Shown: positions 42,145 to 60,798 of the stretch, piece by piece | How the letters are laid out: the number at the start of each line of letters is the position of its first letter | Position numbering within the stretch: the first letter of the stretch is position 1 | DNA from: a virus | Virus record (IMG/VR): IMGVR_UViG_3300027741_002766 | Coordinates: 32,001-96,000 of that record | Length of the DNA: 64,000 bases | Reading direction: 5' to 3' (one strand) | The notes under the pieces: model-generated | Told to the model about the DNA's origin: nothing | The model's database searches: none | Seen by the model: only the letters and a program-made list of their open reading frames with translations | Program-made: the position numbers and the translations under genes

Positions 42145-43022
42145 CAGATACAATTGCCATTGATTTTGTAGCAGGGACTCATGGTCATTTTCTTGAGACC
42201 ACCCTGAATCGATTTTTTCGCATCACCCCTGACATGACTGAATCTTTTACTGCAACAGGAACCAGTCATCTCAAAACCAATGAGTACCAACAAAACAAAT
42301 TGTTTTGGGCCAGGCATTGGTTTGAACTTGAGCCTGTGCATCTAGCAAATTTACAAAAGATCATATCTATTAGATTCACGCAGGACGACTTGCTACTGGT
42401 ATCTACAGCAAGTTTGTTACGGACTGCGGACTTCAATATCAACAATGATGATCTCGAAATTGACACAGTCAACAAGTTGAGCAACAATTTTTATCAGACA
42501 ACTTTGGAACAGATTTATGCGGCATATCCGTTTTTGGATCGAGCACAAGTATCCATACCCAGACATGTGCTGAGAGAATTTTATAAATTTGGTTTTAGAA
42601 ATCCCCACATCAACGGCTATTGGTTGAAACAACAAGCCATGACATATCCCACACACTGCGACATTTGTTTTTTTGATTTTTCTGCTTTTTACGACCTAGA
42701 CCAGTTGGTTCAAAATATCAAGAAAGTGGAAAAATTTATAGACAAAAAATTTGATTTTTCCCAAGAGTTCTATCAACAGCATGAAAAATTTTTGAGTTTC
42801 ATAACCTACCACCAGCACAAACAACAGTGCGACCATGTGATAGAATGTGTCAAACACGGCATGGATATCTCTATTCCAAGGCTCACATTGTTTCAAGAGA
42901 GTTACATCAATGGCTGTTTGGAAAATATCTACCACAAAGAAATGCCGTTTGATCAGGATAGGTACTTTACTTCTACTAAAGATATGCTATACTATATTAC
43001 TAACCTTGCTCCAAATTTATGA
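42141..43022 (+). CDS. Hypothetical protein (293 aa), possible P-loop/sulfotransferase-like fold
   Basis: N-terminal IAIDFVAGTHGHFL strand-loop-helix; ATGA-coupled on both sides. Confidence 0.6.
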   Translation: MTDTIAIDFVAGTHGHFLETTLNRFFRITPDMTESFTATGTSHLKTNEYQQNKLFWARHWFELEPVHLANLQKIISIRFTQDDLLLVSTASLLRTADFNINNDDLEIDTVNKLSNNFYQTTLEQIYAAYPFLDRAQVSIPRHVLREFYKFGFRNPHINGYWLKQQAMTYPTHCDICFFDFSAFYDLDQLVQNIKKVEKFIDKKFDFSQEFYQQHEKFLSFITYHQHKQQCDHVIECVKHGMDISIPRLTLFQESYINGCLENIYHKEMPFDQDRYFTSTKDMLYYITNLAPNL

Positions 43023-44782
43023 TCCAAATTAAAAATTTAACTGTTCGAAACTTCATGAGTGTGGGTGCGGCCACGCAAGGCATTGACTTTGACCGTAGTG
43101 ACCTTACACTTGTGCTGGGCGAGAACTTGGACCTGGGCGGTGATGGCTCACGCAACGGCACAGGCAAGACCACAATCATCAATGCACTAAGTTATGCCTT
43201 GTATGGTCAAGCACTTTCAAACATTCGCAAGGACAATCTAGTAAACAAGACCAATGGCAAGAACATGTTGGTCAGTTTGGACTTTAGTGTCAACAGCCAA
43301 GAGTACAGAATTGAGCGTGGACGAAAGCCAAATGTATTGCGTTTCTACGTCAACAACGAACACAAGGCAGCCGAAGACGAAGCACAAGGTGACTCAAGAG
43401 AAACACAGGATGCCATAGAACGTGTGATGAACATGAGTCATGACATGTTCAAACATGTGCTGGCGCTGAACACTTATACTGAACCGTTTCTAAGTTTAAA
43501 AGCCAATGATCAAAGAACTATCATTGAACAGTTGTTGGGTATTACACTATTGAGTGAACGTGCTGATGCAATCAAAGAACTTAACAGACAGACCAAAGAT
43601 GCTATACAGGTAGAAGAGTTTCGCATTCGTGCTGTGCAAGAGGCCAACAAGCGCATCGAAGAACAGATTGAAAGTCTGCGTAAGCGTCAACGTCTTTGGA
43701 TTACCAAACGTGATGAAGATGTGGGCAAACTAGGACAGGCTATTCAAGATCTCGAACATATAGACATTGATGCCGAAGTACAGGCACATAGAGATCTAGA
43801 AGCATTCCATGTCAAGAAGAAAGCCATAGACGATGCCACGCGATACATTCGTCAGATTGATGCAGATGATGCCAAACTTACCAAACTGTTAGACAAACTC
43901 AAACGAGAAATTGAAGCACTGGATGCTCACAAGTGTCACAGTTGCGGGCAAGACCTACATGATGACAAACAAGATGAGTTGAAGCAGGCCAAACAAGCCT
44001 TGGTACAAGAAACTGCATTACAACTCCTGGCCAACGATACTCAACGAATTGAGCATACTGATACCTTGGAAAAACTAGGTGAACTAGGCTCTGCTCCTAC
44101 TGTGTTTTATGATACATTAGAACAGGCGTTGAATCATCGCAATACTGTAGAAACCTTACGCAAGGATTTGACCACAAGGCAAGCAGATGTGGATCCCTAC
44201 GAAGAACAAATCACAGACATGCAAGGACAAGCATTACAAACAGTATCATATGATACCTTGAACGAACTCACTAGAGTGCAGGATCATCAAGACTTCCTAC
44301 TCAAACTGCTGACGTCAAAAGATTCGTTCGTACGCAAAAAGATTATTGATCAGAATTTGAGTTATTTGAACGCAAGACTCACACACTATCTGGATCGTAT
44401 TGGATTGCCACACACAGTGAAGTTCCAGAACGATCTCACAGTGAGCATCGAAGAACTGGGCCGTGAACTGGACTTTGACAACCTGAGCCGTGGCGAACGC
44501 AATCGATTGATACTATCAATGTCATGGGCGTTCCGAGATGTTTGGGAAAGTTTATACTCACCAATCAACTTGTTGTTTATTGATGAACTGATCGACAACG
44601 GTCTAGACACACAAGGTGTAGAGAATGCTTTGGCTCTGCTGAAGAAAATGAGTAGAGAGCGTCACAAATCAATTTGGTTAGTATCACATCGTGATGAACT
44701 GGCTGGGCGTGTGGAGAACATACTCAAAGTCATAAAAGAAAACGGATTTACCAGTTACAACACTGACGTAGATCTTGCATAA
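43019..44782 (+). CDS. gp46: Recombination ATPase subunit, Rad50/SbcC-like
   Basis: Walker A NGTGKTT, coiled coil with CHSC zinc hook, LSRGE signature, Walker B LLFIDE, SH switch. Confidence 0.95.
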   Translation: MIQIKNLTVRNFMSVGAATQGIDFDRSDLTLVLGENLDLGGDGSRNGTGKTTIINALSYALYGQALSNIRKDNLVNKTNGKNMLVSLDFSVNSQEYRIERGRKPNVLRFYVNNEHKAAEDEAQGDSRETQDAIERVMNMSHDMFKHVLALNTYTEPFLSLKANDQRTIIEQLLGITLLSERADAIKELNRQTKDAIQVEEFRIRAVQEANKRIEEQIESLRKRQRLWITKRDEDVGKLGQAIQDLEHIDIDAEVQAHRDLEAFHVKKKAIDDATRYIRQIDADDAKLTKLLDKLKREIEALDAHKCHSCGQDLHDDKQDELKQAKQALVQETALQLLANDTQRIEHTDTLEKLGELGSAPTVFYDTLEQALNHRNTVETLRKDLTTRQADVDPYEEQITDMQGQALQTVSYDTLNELTRVQDHQDFLLKLLTSKDSFVRKKIIDQNLSYLNARLTHYLDRIGLPHTVKFQNDLTVSIEELGRELDFDNLSRGERNRLILSMSWAFRDVWESLYSPINLLFIDELIDNGLDTQGVENALALLKKMSRERHKSIWLVSHRDELAGRVENILKVIKENGFTSYNTDVDLA

Positions 44783-44859
44783 TTTCATATTGTAGGCATA
44801 TTTTTAGATCAATCAATCAAGAGGCATAACTATATCGCAAGGACAAATCTTACACTTTT

Positions 44860-45288
44860 ATGACATGGCAATATCAAAACACTCCTGTAGAGACGTTGCC
44901 CGAAGACTGTGTAGGGTTTGTTTACTTGATCACAAATAATCTTTCTGGACGCAAGTACATAGGCAAAAAATTAGCAAAATTCGCAAAAACCACATACAAA
45001 ACTGTAAAACAAAAAAACGGCACAAAAAAGCGGAAGAAGATACGCTCTAAAATCGATTCAGATTGGAGAGAGTACTATGGGTCAAGCCCAGAATTGACCG
45101 CAGACGTAATCACACTAGGCACCGAAAACTTTACCAGAGAAATACTTTACTATTGCAAAAGCAAGTCTGAATGCTCGTACATTGAGGCCCGTGAACAATT
45201 TGCAAGGCGAGTATTGGAATCACAAGATTATTACAATGGCCACATCCAGGTGCGGGTGCATGGCTCACACATAATAAACAAAATTTAA
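44860..45288 (+). CDS. Stand-alone GIY-YIG nuclease (142 aa) with a basic insertion
   Basis: GFVYLITN...KYIGKK, W..YYGSS, FTREIL, YIEARE, YYN; basic loop KQKNGTKKRKKIRSK; no NUMOD DNA-binding tail. Confidence 0.8.
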   Translation: MTWQYQNTPVETLPEDCVGFVYLITNNLSGRKYIGKKLAKFAKTTYKTVKQKNGTKKRKKIRSKIDSDWREYYGSSPELTADVITLGTENFTREILYYCKSKSECSYIEAREQFARRVLESQDYYNGHIQVRVHGSHIINKI

Positions 45289-45640
45289 CAGGCAGCGATC
45301 ACGACTCTGTGCTGAGTGTTTGGGCTCAGCCCCATTGAAGAACGGTGAGATACCCGGTCTGGACTTGGGCGTCAAAGGCAAATTGCTAACTTAAGGCAAC
45401 AAATGGTTTGGGCTCCGTTGAAAAAGATACGACCCATGCTTATAGGACTTGGATCTATATCGGGTTACTAGGGTTCCGTTGATATGTGAAGCGTGAGTAG
45501 GGGGTACCGGTCAACCGCCTCCGTGTGTGCAAACACAATCTCATTAGTATAGATGACTGCTGTCACTCGGATGATGCGCTCTCATTTTCACCGTGCATAC
45601 GGTGAATTATGACCACGTAATCTGGATGATACTTAATCAG
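45289..45640 (+). ncRNA. Candidate large structured non-coding RNA
   Basis: Largest ORF-free gap in the window. Has many helices, including a GCAA-tetraloop hairpin (45524-45537), a long hairpin (45582-45612), a possible pseudoknot (45453-45460/45547-45554) and a closing helix (45288-45295/45557-45563). Boundaries are approximate. Confidence 0.6.
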
Positions 45641-45663
45641 TAACAGTGTTTATGAAACAATCC

Positions 45664-45705
45664 ATTGATGAACGAAGTGAATCAATAGACTTGCGTAGCA
45701 AGTCT
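45664..45705 (+). other. Tandem GNA-triloop hairpins (ssDNA-type structure or bidirectional stop signal)
   Basis: attgat-GA-ac-GAA-gt-GA-atcaat followed directly by agacttgc-GTA-gcaagtct. Confidence 0.6.
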
Positions 45706-46245
45706 CTAAAGTAACTGTAACTGTTTCAACTTTGAGATATAGTATGGTTGTCCTTGAGCAACTGATTGACGCCAATCATCATGTGCATCTTGATTGGCTT
45801 GATCGCTGATGTATTTCCAACACTCAAATTCAACTCCATACTTTGCACAGGCTTTGGCAATGGCATAGGCTTCCATATCTACTATGTCTGCTGGTATTTC
45901 TAGTTGGGGATTCATCACAAAGTTATCACCGGTACTGCAAGTCAGTCCAATTGTGTTGCCAATATGTACGTTGGTTTCAAAAGGCGTTTGTCCAGGCACA
46001 CATCCCAAGGCTTCGCAGATCATGTCACGTTGTACAAACTGGGTACACTGATAGAATCCTGGTGCAACAGTGATGCCTCCGGCTGTGCCAAAGTTGATGA
46101 TGCGTCGGGGACGATACTTGGCTATGACTTCGGCGGTGACCATGGCAGCATTGACCTTGCCCACACCTGTGTAAAACAAGTTCATCATGTGGCCAAGATC
46201 CGGTGCCTCTTCAGGCAAGGCTATTAGAATAACAGTGTCATACAT
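45706..46245 (-). CDS. mtnN: 5'-methylthioadenosine/S-adenosylhomocysteine nucleosidase
   Basis: GVGKVNAA, IINFGTAG, TGDNF, VDMEAYA, KYISD. Confidence 0.85.
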   Translation of the reverse strand: MYDTVILIALPEEAPDLGHMMNLFYTGVGKVNAAMVTAEVIAKYRPRRIINFGTAGGITVAPGFYQCTQFVQRDMICEALGCVPGQTPFETNVHIGNTIGLTCSTGDNFVMNPQLEIPADIVDMEAYAIAKACAKYGVEFECWKYISDQANQDAHDDWRQSVAQGQPYYISKLKQLQLL

Positions 46246-56824: not shown

Positions 56825-57580
56825 ATGAAACCATACACCTATCTAATAAAACATCGTCCTACAAGCAAAGTCTATTATGGATATCGTTCTGCTAACCAAG
56901 TAAATCCGTGTGATGATCTTTGGAAACATTATTTTACCAGTAGTCATGGTGTACAACAGTTGATTGATGAAACCGGCGCAGATAGTTTTGATGTGGAAAT
57001 ACGCAGAATATTTGAAACCAAAGAACAGGCAAGCAACTGGGAAACCCGAGTATTACGTCGCTGCCGAGTATTAGAAGACGAGCGTTGGCTTAATCAAAAC
57101 ATTGCCGGTTATATTGTGCCCACCAAAGAAAGCCGAAAAAAGATCAGTGACTACCACAAAGGAAAACCTAAGAGTGATCAACACAAACAAAATCTAAGTA
57201 AATCACAAAAAGGTAAATCAAAAAATTATGTACAAACAGAAGAACACAAAAGAAAAAATTCTTTAGCAAACAGTGGGAAAAATAATCCGATGTACGGTAC
57301 TTGTACACCTGAACGTGCGGCAAATATAAGTGCCGCTAAAAAAGGTAAACCTGCCGCAAACAAAGGTGTTCCGATGAGTGAAGAGCAAAAAGCAAAGATT
57401 CGTGCTACTAAAGCCATTAGTCCAACTAAGATGAGTGCGGAGTCAATCGCTCGCCGGATAGCCAAACAAACTGGCCAAAAACGACAAAAACTACACTGCC
57501 CACATTGTGAACGAGACATAGCAGTCGGGTGGTATAATCGGCACGGTGATCAATGCCGCGCCCGACTAAATACCTTGTGA
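56825..57580 (+). mobile_element. Free-standing GIY-YIG-like (Seg-type) homing endonuclease with NUMOD3-like repeats
   Basis: PYTYLI...YYGYR, YFTSS, WLNQN; KGKPKSDQHKQNLS, NKGVPMSEEQKAKI; C-terminal CPHC...H...C. Late promoter CTAAATA at 56813-56819. Confidence 0.8.
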
Positions 57581-59883: not shown

Positions 59884-59889
59884 CTTGTC

Positions 59890-59966
59890 AACGCAATTCT
59901 GCGTTTTATGCGGCGATTAACCCCACCGCGTAGCGGCTAGAACCCGCATTGGGCTTCTACTAGGAG
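59890..59966 (+). promoter_or_regulatory. Structured 5'-UTR (three hairpins plus possible pseudoknot) abutting the SD
   Basis: aacgca/tgcgtt; tatgcgg/ccgcgta; gcgg/ccgc with loop TAGAA complementary to TTCTA at 59955-59959; SD AGGAG at 59962-59966. Confidence 0.55.
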
Positions 59967-59973
59967 AAATCAA

Positions 59974-60798
59974 ATGGGAAGATCACTTAAAATACAAAAA
60001 ACAAACATTGGATCTGGATCCACTGTAACAGGCAATCCACCTGTAACCGCCTACAATCAAAACGTGCTTACAGATGCAGGCTTCACATCCTTTGGCAACT
60101 TGATTGATCCTGATGCTGGCAGCGGTACAGGACTCACTAACAGTCAGTTCCTGGGTGTGGTAGGCGGTGTACCTGCCACCAGTAATCCCAGTGCTACTTT
60201 TCCAGAAGTGTTGACTCAAGCCAATATCTTGCTGGCTGATGGCACAAATACTGCTTACGGTAACAGTCAAATTCTACGACAAAAAGGCGCACACAAGTTT
60301 ATGGTTGCTAACTTAGATAGCATAACCAGTGATGGTAGTTTTATTGTAGGTCAAGCATACCAAATTGCCTCATTGGGTAATACTGCCTGGACCAGTTATG
60401 GTGCTCCTACTACCGTGGCAGTGGGTGACGTTTTCACCGCAACTTCGGTAGGCGGCGCAGGCACAGGAACTGCTTATCCAGTGGGCACTTGTGTGTTGCA
60501 AAACTCAGCCACACCAACTGCTGGTTTTATGAGTGTGGGCTACACGTTCAATGGTGGTAGCACTACCTATGCTAGTTATATCACTAACAAGTGGGTGCGT
60601 GACTGGAACGGCATGACATATGGCAACTATAACAATGGCAATGATGGTGAAAATATCTATTCCAACGAAAACTACTATGTGACCAACTTCTTTAGCAATG
60701 TGGGCACAGTGACATTGAGTGGTGCAGACGTGATCAACAGCGCACCAGGCAACAACGGTTCTGTGTATATTGCACAGATCGACAACGTTACAAGTTAA
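59974..60798 (+). CDS. Virion structural protein (possible capsid decoration protein)
   Basis: MGRSLK start, ILRQKG..KF motif, strong SD, own late promoter and terminator. Confidence 0.55.
   Translation: MGRSLKIQKTNIGSGSTVTGNPPVTAYNQNVLTDAGFTSFGNLIDPDAGSGTGLTNSQFLGVVGGVPATSNPSATFPEVLTQANILLADGTNTAYGNSQILRQKGAHKFMVANLDSITSDGSFIVGQAYQIASLGNTAWTSYGAPTTVAVGDVFTATSVGGAGTGTAYPVGTCVLQNSATPTAGFMSVGYTFNGGSTTYASYITNKWVRDWNGMTYGNYNNGNDGENIYSNENYYVTNFFSNVGTVTLSGADVINSAPGNNGSVYIAQIDNVTS

What the first reader, a model, noticed from the sequence alone, without database searches (positions are those of the whole stretch)
44860..45640. Minimal GIY-YIG nuclease followed immediately by a large, densely structured RNA: candidate RNA-associated nuclease system
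Seen: genes in this window mostly overlap or abut, yet 417 nt (45289-45705) carry no ORF of 60 aa or more on either strand, starting at the stop codon of a 142-aa GIY-YIG protein. Helices read by eye: acaggcag 45288-95 with ctgctgt 45557-63 (closing helix, one bulge); gctgagt/gctcagc 45311-30; ccatt 45332-36 with aatgg 45402-06, enclosing cgg/ccg and ttgc/gcaa hairpins; tggg..cgt/acg..ccca 45409-36; a tgag/ctca junction holding ggggg/cctcc, cgg-TCAA-ccg and tgtgt-GCAA-acaca (GNRA tetraloop); atctatat 45453-60, in a probable loop, complementary to gtatagat 45547-54 (pseudoknot); tcat.ttcaccgt-GCAT-acggtgaa..atga 45582-612, flanked by two GGATGAT copies (45569, 45624). The G-U wobbles and the GNRA loop favour a plus-strand RNA co-transcribed with the nuclease. 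The protein has only the catalytic domain plus a highly basic arm (KQKNGTKKRKKIRSK) and lacks the NUMOD3/Zn tail seen in the homing endonuclease at 56825. Known: IscB/TnpB nucleases get specificity from adjacent structured RNAs. Inference: this may be a GIY-YIG ribonucleoprotein (RNA-guided or RNA-scaffolded), or a new large phage ncRNA or ribozyme, placed next to gp46/47 in recombination or host-DNA degradation. I do not recognise it as a named RNA family.
Basis: partly seen in the sequence, partly recalled or inferred. Interest (0 to 1): 0.9.

Follow-up and report, generated by a model that had tools for sequence, protein, structure and literature searches.

The report
Twin-box folded RNA of lake phages
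The gene-free gap behind a small nuclease gene of this uncultured freshwater T4-like phage encodes a real, doubly knotted non-coding RNA of about 340 bases, a divergent relative of the little-studied Polynucleobacter-1 RNA; its job is unknown and nothing shows that it guides the nuclease.

Summary
The gap 45289-45705 is non-coding and holds a real plus-strand structured RNA (core 45299-45633). The window copy alone folds no better than shuffles. However, 117 distinct homologues from IMG/VR phage contigs show strong covariation: 92% of cells paired, and 40 of 69 pairs compensated, against 26 in shuffles. Two pseudoknots are supported.

Rfam has no hit on the window copy. In sister loci a Polynucleobacter-1 RNA (RF01718) replaces the 5' domain and the 3' half is shared. 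Weinberg et al. (2010) already placed that motif behind this gene family (PSSM2_218 homologues).

The 3' module has two direct-repeat units. Their 7-nt boxes are identical to each other in 114 of 117 RNAs although ten box types exist. This is unexplained.

The RNA-guided nuclease idea is not supported. The protein family occurs in 459 cultured-phage records; none of the four I inspected has a large non-coding region after it. The RNA occurs without the gene in two contigs. The protein does not track box type, and no long guide-like segment exists.

This scan reached the same reading on other genomes. Function remains unknown.

The parts
44860..45288 (+). 142-aa catalytic-domain-only GIY-YIG protein (PF19835; PHROG 447; T4-GC 213; homologue of P-SSM2 PSSM2_218)
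45289..45298 (+).
   Evidence: alignment
45299..45633 (+). conserved core of the structured RNA (type A)
   Evidence: 77-95% nt identity in 156 loci, 120 distinct copies; covariation
45303..45373 (+). 5' three-way junction: Ha 45303-05/45371-73; Hb 45311-17/45324-30; Hc 45331-34/45366-69 enclosing Hd 45339-60
   Evidence: 2, 6, 3 and 5 pairs with changes on both sides
45383..45399 (+). hairpin He with nearly invariant 7-nt loop AACUUAA
   Evidence: 4 of 5 pairs compensated
45409..45436 (+). hairpin Hf
   Evidence: UA 60 / GC 41 / CG 11 at the closing pair
45446..45466 (+). hairpin Hg; its loop 45453-58 is the 5' strand of pseudoknot PK1
45549..45554 (+). 3' strand of PK1 (AUAGAU)
   Evidence: helix 10: CG 57 / UA 52 at 45455-45552; matched insertions seen
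45478..45483 (+). 5' strand of pseudoknot PK2 (GUUGAU); pairs with the Hi loop 45510-15 (GUCAAC)
   Evidence: GUUGA/UCAAC in type A, GUUGU/ACAAC in type B, GUUGUG/CACAAC in L030 and L016
45494..45543 (+). central three-way junction: Hh 45494-97/45540-43; Hi 45500-05/45517-22; Hj 45525-36 (GNRA loop, variable length)
   Evidence: AU 61 / UA 56; GC 88 / AU 29; four pair types in Hj; 41-nt Hj insertions in L086, L054, L074
45553..45575 (+). repeat unit 1: ATGAC - N11 - CTC - box 1 (GGATGAT, 45569-75)
45587..45606 (+). 8-bp hairpin Hk, extended by TCA(T) 45582-85 pairing with (A)TGA 45609-12
   Evidence: entirely different but still complementary sequences in types B and C
45609..45630 (+). repeat unit 2: ATGAC - N10 - TCT - box 2 (GGATGAT, 45624-30)
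   Evidence: box 1 = box 2 in 114 of 117 RNAs, ten box types
45664..45705 (.). two hairpins without a U-tract between the RNA and the stop codon of the convergent PNP-family gene; probably a two-way terminator
   Evidence: compensatory variants; no consensus terminator found

Best explanation
What it is (shown). This is an independently folding plus-strand non-coding RNA of about 335 nt. It has two three-way junctions, about twelve helices and two pseudoknots. It sits at the very end of the rightward gp47-gp46-GIY-YIG gene run, just before the convergent leftward genes.

It is one of at least three interchangeable versions (types A, B, C) found at this locus in a clade of uncultured freshwater T4-like phages. 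Type B carries the catalogued Polynucleobacter-1 motif as its 5' domain. All three share a 3' module of two direct-repeat units around a hairpin.

How it most likely works (inferred). The RNA is transcribed with the nuclease mRNA, or processed from its 3' end. It then acts through its fold as a stable RNA, not as a guide for the neighbouring nuclease. The two boxes are identical within each RNA but differ between RNAs. I read them as two equivalent docking sites for two copies of one unidentified partner, either a dimeric protein or a repeated nucleic-acid sequence, which co-evolves with them. On this reading the variable 5' domains are alternative functional heads on a common handle.
For: Structure. 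On 117 distinct RNAs, 92.2% of cells are paired against 83.3% in shuffles. 40 pairs have changes on both sides against 26.4 +/- 2.1, and 729 cells against 181; none of 500 shuffles reached the observed value on any measure. Slid controls give 34-48% paired. RNAalifold independently recovers the helices, with 31 of 63 pairs compensated. PK1 and PK2 are compensated.

Strand. Abundant G-U pairs lie on the plus strand only.

Non-coding..

Position. In all loci the RNA ends a plus-strand gene run and is mostly followed by minus-strand genes, whatever those genes are.

Linkage within the clade. All 64 GIY-YIG-anchored loci with enough downstream sequence carry a type A, B or C RNA.

Shared 3' half. 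nhmmer E-values are 1e-8 to 4e-16 for type B loci, and RF01718 scores 98-120 bits in the same loci.

Boxes. They are identical in 114 of 117 RNAs with ten types, against a shuffled mean of 25.7 and maximum of 42. In 9 independent supported contrasts, 8-9 go the same way and none the opposite way.

Expression. Contigs in four freshwater metatranscriptomes from four studies cover 44890-45637. Two of them bridge ORF and RNA, and there is little cover on the flanking genes.

Not a guide..
Against: - No partner has been found. No sequence inside the RNA co-varies with the boxes. The box motif is not enriched elsewhere in the 108.7-kb genome fragment.
- The two boxes lie 55 nt apart, so part of their association is shared history. 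The argument for selection rests on the rarity of intermediates across ten box types.
- The expression data are assembled contigs only. They give no ends, no strand and no level, and DNA carry-over is not excluded.
- A purely cis-acting role at the mRNA 3' end is not excluded.
- Within this clade the RNA and the GIY-YIG gene are almost always neighbours, which would also fit a functional link.
Confidence: 0.5

Rival explanations
1. Cis-acting 3'-end element. The fold protects the gp47-gp46-GIY-YIG transcript from 3' exonucleases, or insulates convergent transcription at the border between the replication/recombination genes and the leftward baseplate and accessory genes. It has no role in trans.
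For: The RNA always lies at the 3' end of the plus-strand gene run, directly after a stop codon (spacing -15 to about 30 nt). This holds even when other ORFs are inserted between it and the GIY-YIG gene. Two conserved hairpins follow it. Contigs bridge ORF and RNA.
Against: Two pseudoknots, long invariant unpaired stretches and three alternative 5' domains on one 3' module are far more than a stabiliser or terminator needs. The concerted boxes have no place in this model. No consensus terminator was found.
Confidence: 0.2
2. Ribozyme. The large fold catalyses cleavage, ligation or another reaction. The two identical boxes are two equivalent substrate sites, for example for release or circularisation of the roughly 55-nt segment between them.
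For: The size, the double pseudoknot, GNRA loops and invariant junction nucleotides resemble large ribozymes. Two identical sites flanking a conserved hairpin would suit paired processing.
Against: There is no match to any Rfam ribozyme, even at E <= 10. No internal sequence is complementary to the boxes or co-varies with them. RNA contigs run through both boxes (records 7 and 30), although contigs cannot show cleavage.
Confidence: 0.1
3. First reader's model. The RNA is the guide or scaffold of the adjacent catalytic-domain-only GIY-YIG nuclease, forming an RNA-directed DNA endonuclease.
For: The protein has only the catalytic domain. All 64 clade members with enough downstream sequence are followed by an RNA carrying the common 3' module. 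ORF and RNA lie on the same contigs in RNA libraries. Weinberg et al. 2010 also saw Polynucleobacter-1 RNAs behind this gene family.
Against: The family is about 145 aa and stands alone in 459 cultured-phage records. In the four inspected no RNA-sized gap follows it. The RNA occurs without the gene in L136 and L171. Proteins are 92-94% identical next to different RNA types and boxes, and no residue tracks the boxes. The variable segments are only 5-7 nt. Neither the boxes nor their complements mark other sites in the genome fragment.
Confidence: 0.07
4. DNA-level element. The 3' module (two direct repeats on the same helical face around a perfect palindrome) acts as DNA. The repeats would be iteron-like binding sites of an origin, or a recombination or nuclease target site, kept identical by a co-evolving DNA-binding protein.
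For: Direct repeats that differ between genomes but match within one are typical of iterons (established knowledge of plasmid, geminivirus and phage origins). The hairpin Hk is a perfect palindrome in all three types.
Against: The module is continuous with an RNA whose pairs include plus-strand-only G-U. One of its strands (45549-54) forms PK1 with a hairpin loop 95 nt upstream. The region is present in RNA libraries. No cognate DNA-binding gene travels with it.
Confidence: 0.07

Closest known systems
Polynucleobacter-1 RNA motif (Rfam RF01718; Weinberg et al. 2010, PMC2864571)
   Same: Both come from freshwater sequence data. Both lie directly downstream of PSSM2_218-type genes: this is stated in the paper's supplement, and the window gene is a homologue at 38% identity, E 4e-21. 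In sister loci RF01718 sits 8 nt after the same GIY-YIG stop codon and is followed by the same central and 3' domains as the window RNA. By eye, the first roughly 100 nt share an architecture: an ACGAC leader, hairpin, CC(C), hairpin, GGAC...GUC, then a 5-bp hairpin with a 7-nt loop.
   Different: The Rfam model gives no hit on the window, even at E <= 10. The catalogued motif is 141 nt and covers only a 5' domain. The pseudoknots, the central junction and the twin-box module are not part of it. Its function is also unknown.
OMEGA guide RNAs (IscB HEARO/omega RNA, TnpB reRNA)
   Same: A large structured RNA encoded next to a small nuclease gene on the same strand.
   Different: Those nucleases are RuvC/HNH proteins with RNA-binding domains, and the RNA carries a 15-20-nt variable guide at one end and is obligate. 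Here the nuclease is GIY-YIG only, no long variable segment exists, and gene and RNA occur apart.
Free-standing Seg endonuclease genes beside RNA genes in T4 (segB in the tRNA cluster). From my own knowledge of the T4 literature; not checked here.
   Same: A GIY-YIG gene is a chromosomal neighbour of non-coding RNA genes in a T4-like phage, without the RNA being its cofactor. The adjacent region is mosaic between related phages.
   Different: This GIY-YIG gene is fixed, single-copy and widely conserved rather than sporadic. The RNA is not a tRNA.
Box C/D sRNAs and TIGR tigRNAs (two-site RNAs). From my own knowledge.
   Same: Both have two-fold pseudo-symmetry: two short conserved elements, each next to a roughly 10-nt variable segment, arranged around a central hairpin.
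   Different: The boxes do not keep the RUGAUGA/CUGA consensus (GGAUAAU, AGACGAA, AGAUCAA). One 'C-like' element is engaged in PK1. No Nop or L7Ae-type gene was seen among the neighbours examined.
Large ornate phage-associated RNAs of unknown function (ROOL, GOLLD). From my own knowledge.
   Same: Large, phage-borne, heavily structured, with no known function.
   Different: No Rfam match to either. This RNA is smaller and has a different architecture.

Membership tests
Polynucleobacter-1 RNA (RF01718) | Scores at or above the Rfam gathering threshold (37 bits) against the covariance model | tested here: not met
   No hit on window 44600-45900 even at E <= 10 nor at gathering threshold on the whole window. 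Sister loci score 98-120 bits.
Polynucleobacter-1 RNA (RF01718) | Lies downstream of a GOS11034 / PSSM2_218-type gene | tested here: met
   Paper supplement. Window GIY-YIG against PSSM2_218: 38% identity, E 4e-21. The RNA starts 11 nt after the stop codon.
Polynucleobacter-1 RNA (RF01718) | Homology with RNAs that contain the motif | tested here: met
   A type A profile matches type B loci over model positions 131/205-338 at E 1e-8 to 4e-16. PK2 and the twin-box module are shared.
Polynucleobacter-1 RNA (RF01718) | Same 5' hairpin arrangement as the model consensus | tested here: inconclusive
   Compared by eye only, between the consensus and helices Ha-He. No model-based alignment was made.
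Guide or scaffold RNA of an RNA-guided nuclease (OMEGA-like) | A hypervariable guide segment of about 12 nt or more at a fixed place | tested here: not met
   The only variable stretches inside the conserved fold are 5-7 nt in the N10/N11 spacers, the linker and the Hj tip.
Guide or scaffold RNA of an RNA-guided nuclease (OMEGA-like) | Obligate co-occurrence of the nuclease family and the RNA | tested here: not met
   The gene occurs without the RNA in Melnitz, ACP17, P-HM1 and P-SSM2. The RNA occurs without the gene in L136 and L171.
Guide or scaffold RNA of an RNA-guided nuclease (OMEGA-like) | The protein co-evolves with the RNA elements it reads | tested here: not met
   Maximum mutual information is 0.29 (box position 1) and 0.53 (position 5, diffuse). 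Proteins are 92-94% identical next to type C RNAs with box ACATGAA.
Guide or scaffold RNA of an RNA-guided nuclease (OMEGA-like) | Physical binding and RNA-dependent cleavage | not testable with these tools
   Needs EMSA or RIP and cleavage assays.
Group I intron (with or beside a homing endonuclease gene) | Interrupts a gene, with exons on both sides on the same strand | tested here: not met
   gp46 and the GIY-YIG ORF end with stop codons, and the next gene is convergent. The same holds in related loci.
Group I intron (with or beside a homing endonuclease gene) | Match to the group I core | tested here: not met
   No Rfam hit of any kind at E <= 10.
SegE-type GIY-YIG domain (PF19835) | Profile match above the curated cut-off | tested here: met
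   115 bits against a cut-off of 25, E 3.2e-33, covering profile positions 1-123 of 123. Also PHROG 447 at E 5e-37.
Box C/D-type RNA | Conserved C (RUGAUGA) and D (CUGA) boxes | tested here: not met
   Ten box types, several without UGA. Part of unit 1 is Watson-Crick paired in PK1.

The most novel reading that the evidence does not exclude
The twin boxes, together with the adjacent 10-11-nt spacers, form a two-site recognition module. It is read by, or reads, an unidentified partner that differs from phage to phage. This would make these RNAs a family of programmable two-site adaptors: alternative functional heads on a common handle, used by T4-like phages against a host or a competitor target. 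That would be a new kind of phage RNA device, independent of the neighbouring GIY-YIG nuclease.
Probability: 0.15. Interest if true: 0.85.

Novelty: new variant of a known kind. Interest (0 to 1): 0.6.

Why it matters
Large, conserved, pseudoknotted RNAs with no known function are rare. Past examples (RNase P RNA, riboswitches, the omega RNAs once called HEARO) turned out to mark new biochemistry.

This RNA is abundant: it occurs in more than 150 freshwater phage contigs. It comes in three modular versions on one handle, appears in lake metatranscriptomes, and carries two boxes that change in evolution yet stay identical to each other. That last feature points to a specific partner still to be found.

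This work also corrects two records. The catalogued 141-nt Polynucleobacter-1 motif is only the 5' domain of a much larger RNA. The neighbouring gene family, annotated 'NAD synthetase' in many phage genomes, is a GIY-YIG nuclease domain protein.

The attractive RNA-guided GIY-YIG idea finds no support.

Tried and rejected
- **Rfam.** Gathering and E <= 10 thresholds on the window gave nothing in the region.
- **Single-sequence folding.** Not better than shuffles on either strand.
- **blastn of 44700-45800 against 50,697 cultured-phage records.** No match.
- **Pattern scan of genome contigs.** My pattern had only 15 fixed bases. All 120 rows returned were chance matches by nhmmer, so this says nothing about bacteria.
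- **RF01718 in bacterial genomes.** Not found in 3 plus 151 sampled Burkholderiaceae-type genomes. The control genomes did not ring either, so this is uninformative.
- **Own-genome search for the box, its complement or the unit motif.** No enrichment and no second site.
- **Mutual information between GIY-YIG residues and box states.** Nothing specific.
- **Search for an internal partner of the boxes.** No column co-varies with them except the other box. Hand-tested registers failed on several variants: box with TGAC element, box 1 with AUCU before box 2, and spacer X with spacer Y.
- **K-turn or C/D reading and CsrA-site (GGA) reading of the boxes.** Rejected, because half of the RNAs have AGAU... 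or ...UAAU boxes.
- **Kissing-dimer reading of the CUUAAG loop in He.** Five variants break the palindrome without compensation.
- **Regex hunts for the module.** Noisy or too strict.
- **Promoter and terminator consensus scan.** Nothing beyond chance.
- **tRNA and tmRNA search.** None.
- **Pfam on the ORFs inserted between gene and RNA and on downstream genes.** No informative domains.
- **Absence of RNA-contig cover at 45640-45780.** Cannot be read as a 3' end, because that stretch is also too variable to match at 85%.
Full report
**Setting.** The window is bases 32001-96000 of a 108.7-kb IMG/VR virus record. It is a T4-like phage. The gp46-like SMC/AAA_23 ATPase lies at 43019-44782 (+). A 142-aa GIY-YIG protein lies at 44860-45288 (+). 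A convergent PNP_UDP_1-family gene lies at 45706-46245 (-), followed by a phosphoribosyltransferase, a T4 baseplate protein and a gp5-like lysozyme.

The picture changes with relatives. Searching IMG/VR with the GIY-YIG protein, with the PNP protein, and with an invariant RNA motif brought in 231 loci. Of these, 156 carry a homologue of the gap at 77-95% nucleotide identity, giving 120 distinct sequences.
- None has an ORF longer than 87 aa.
- Column variability shows no codon periodicity (0.53/0.52/0.50), while the adjacent ORF shows 0.41/0.29/0.98.
- Length differences are spread evenly mod 3.

**Structure.** A mutual-information scan and a helix search pointed to a set of helices. I then tested these formally on a tool-made alignment of 117 distinct RNAs (A1).
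- 92.2% of cells are paired, against 83.3 +/- 0.2 in shuffles.
- 40 of 69 pairs have changes on both sides, against 26.4 +/- 2.1.
- 729 cells are doubly changed, against 181.
- None of 500 shuffles reached the observed value on any measure.
- Sliding the 3' partners by 1-3 columns drops pairing to 34-48%, and pairs with changes on both sides to 11-18.
- RNAalifold recovers the same helices on its own, with 31 of 63 pairs compensated.

The fold, in window coordinates checked:
- A 5' three-way junction: Ha 45303-05/45371-73, Hb 45311-17/45324-30, and Hc 45331-34/45366-69 enclosing Hd 45339-60.
- Hairpins He 45383-99 and Hf 45409-36.
- Hairpin Hg 45446-66. Its loop 45453-58 pairs with 45549-54 to form pseudoknot PK1. 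The pair 45455-45552 is C-G in 57 sequences and U-A in 52, and matched one-base insertions occur on both strands.
- A central junction: Hh 45494-97/45540-43, Hi 45500-05/45517-22, and Hj 45525-36. Hj has a GNRA loop, and three loci carry a 41-nt insertion in it.
- A second pseudoknot, PK2, between GUUGAU 45478-83 and the Hi loop GUCAAC 45510-15. It is invariant within type A. It changes to GUUGU/ACAAC in type B and to GUUGUG/CACAAC in two divergent copies.

G-U pairs are frequent and lie on the plus strand only; several pairs are G-U in 115-117 of 117 sequences. The functional strand is therefore the one that also encodes the nuclease.

Two are wrong: ccatt/aatgg and cgg-TCAA-ccg. The 'closing helix' needs a 10-nt insert (45289-98) that only a subclade has.

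**The 3' module.** From 45553 to 45630 there are two direct-repeat units, each of the form ATGAC - N10/11 - YTC/TCT - 7-nt box. They flank an 8-bp hairpin (45587-606). That hairpin is extended by TCA(T) 45582-85 pairing with (A)TGA 45609-12.

The two boxes (45569-75 and 45624-30) are identical to each other in 114 of 117 distinct RNAs, yet ten box types exist: AGATGAT 36, GGATAAT 29, AGATAAT 21, GGATGAT 19, AGATGAA 4, ACATGAA 2, and one or two RNAs each for GGATGAG, AGACGAA, AGATCAA and AGCTGAG/AGCTGAA. Shuffling gives 25.7 identical pairs on average and at most 42. On a tree built without the module, box position 1 changes 27 and 26 times in the two boxes. Of 9 independent supported contrasts, 8-9 go the same way and none the other way. 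The ATGAC parts also change together in rare variants (CGAC/CGAC, TGTC/TGTC, TGGA/TGGA).

The boxes are only 55 nt apart, so shared history explains part of this. But each of the ten types needs parallel changes in both boxes, and intermediates are almost absent. That points to selection for identity.

I found no internal sequence that is complementary to the boxes or co-varies with them. I found no second site in the genome fragment, and no pairing register that survives all variants. This remains unexplained.

**A modular family; link to a catalogued motif.** A profile search found divergent copies. In several loci only the central and 3' parts match, at E 1e-8 to 4e-16. In those loci Rfam finds a Polynucleobacter-1 RNA (RF01718, 98-120 bits) starting 8 nt after the GIY-YIG stop codon. 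This is type B: the catalogued 141-nt motif serves as the 5' domain, followed by the same PK1 and PK2 arrangement, Hi loop and twin-box module, with a different but still complementary central hairpin.

A third version, type C (for example L025 3430-3850), has an unrelated 5' part with no Rfam hit and the same twin-box module with box ACATGAA.

Among the 80 loci fetched through the protein alone, 64 have at least 450 nt downstream. Of these, 36 are type A, 21 type C, 5 type B and 2 divergent type A. So 64 of 64 carry one of these RNAs.

The supplement of Weinberg et al. 2010 (PMC2864571) states that most Polynucleobacter-1 RNAs lie downstream of genes of family GOS11034, with possible homology to PSSM2_218 of cyanophage P-SSM2. 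The window GIY-YIG protein is a homologue of PSSM2_218 at 38% identity, E 4e-21. The gene-RNA neighbourhood was therefore partly noted in 2010, without the nuclease being named and for the 5' motif only.

A full-text search found no later description.

**Is it a nuclease-RNA system?** The evidence goes against an obligate pair.
1. The protein belongs to a stand-alone family of about 145 aa (PHROG 447, profile length 148; T4-GC 213). It is present once per genome in 459 cultured-phage records, mostly T4-like cyanophages. The closest is Methylophilales phage Melnitz at 51% identity.
2. No large non-coding region follows the gene in any of the four records inspected. Melnitz has a 148-nt gap with a late-promoter-like TATAAATA and no module. 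In ACP17, P-HM1 and P-SSM2 the gene abuts or overlaps the next ORF.
3. Two contigs carry a type A RNA with no GIY-YIG homologue anywhere in 12.4 kb and 15 kb (L136, L171).
4. In about 10% of loci one or two unrelated ORFs lie between gene and RNA. The RNA keeps its place at the end of the plus-strand run, directly after whichever stop codon comes last.
5. GIY-YIG proteins next to type C RNAs are 92-94% identical to the window protein, and no residue tracks box state.
6. No segment behaves like a guide. The variable stretches are 5-7 nt.

What stays in favour of a link is the perfect neighbourhood within this clade and the lack of any DNA-binding domain in the protein.

**Expression.** Contigs from four freshwater metatranscriptomes, from four studies, cover 44890-45637. 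Two of them bridge the ORF-RNA boundary (45209-45369, and 44941-45496 with a diverged stretch). There is little cover on gp46 or the PNP gene. This is consistent with co-transcription and with higher abundance than the neighbours. Contigs give no strand, ends or level, and DNA carry-over is not excluded.

**Best reading.** This is a stable, independently folding phage RNA made from the 3' end of the gp47-gp46-GIY-YIG transcription unit. It is one of three modular versions, and it acts through its fold. The twin boxes are most simply two equivalent docking sites for two copies of one co-evolving partner that is still unknown. I rate the identity part at about 0.9, the mechanistic part at about 0.35, and the combined statement at 0.5.

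Rivals and their probabilities:
- a purely cis-acting 3'-end element, 0.2
- a ribozyme with two equivalent substrate sites, 0.1
- a DNA-level iteron or origin-like site, 0.07

**Relation to earlier notes of this scan.** After I had reached the Polynucleobacter-1 link, a look-up by sequence showed that follow-up agents had examined homologous stretches in at least six other genomes. They came to the same reading: a real folded RNA, a relative of RF01718, twin boxes, and not a shown partner of the nuclease. I re-tested these points here.

- compensation of PK2 across types
- the count of 64 of 64 loci over three RNA types sharing one module
- the lack of protein-box co-evolution
- the direct match to PSSM2_218
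- the metatranscriptome contigs

Noticed in passing
window 59889-59976 (+): Rfam hit to the freshwater-2 RNA (RF02980), 66.7 bits against a gathering score of 49.9. The same phage therefore carries a second catalogued metagenome-derived RNA motif.
   Followed up: no
window 45664-45705: Two adjacent hairpins (ATTGAT..ATCAAT and GACTTGC-GTA-GCAAGTC) without a U-tract lie between the RNA and the stop codon of the convergent gene. Both show compensatory variants in related loci, for example GTTGTT..AACAAC and GATGTAC..GTACATC. They look like a two-way terminator.
   Followed up: partly
L025 3430-3850 (also L003, L012, L023, L053, L057, L072): 'Type C': another conserved non-coding element of about 420 nt after the same GIY-YIG gene, seen in 21 of 64 loci. 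It has no Rfam hit. Its 5' part is unrelated, but it has the same twin-box module with box ACATGAA.
   Followed up: partly
L086, L054, L074 (the position equivalent to window 45525-36): A 41-nt insertion turns the short GNRA hairpin Hj into a long hairpin. This marks Hj as a tolerated, solvent-exposed expansion site.
   Followed up: no
window 44860-45288 and cultured-phage records (P-SSM2 PSSM2_218, P-HM1 PHM1_182, ACP17, phiM12 and others): This GIY-YIG domain family is annotated 'NAD synthetase' in PHROG 447 and in many GenBank phage records. The Pfam match (PF19835, E 3e-33) and the GIY/YIG motifs indicate a nuclease domain, so the name looks like a propagated misannotation.
   Followed up: partly
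L165 3617-4645, L214 8761-9681, L051 3953-5068, L216 1416-2249, L033 4790-5182: In some contigs ORFs of 130-370 aa without any Pfam domain are inserted exactly between the GIY-YIG stop codon and the 5' end of the RNA. That boundary appears to be an insertion hotspot.
   Followed up: partly
window 45388-45395: The nearly invariant He loop contains the palindrome CUUAAG, which could allow loop-loop dimerisation. Five variants break it without compensation, so I did not adopt this idea.
   Followed up: partly
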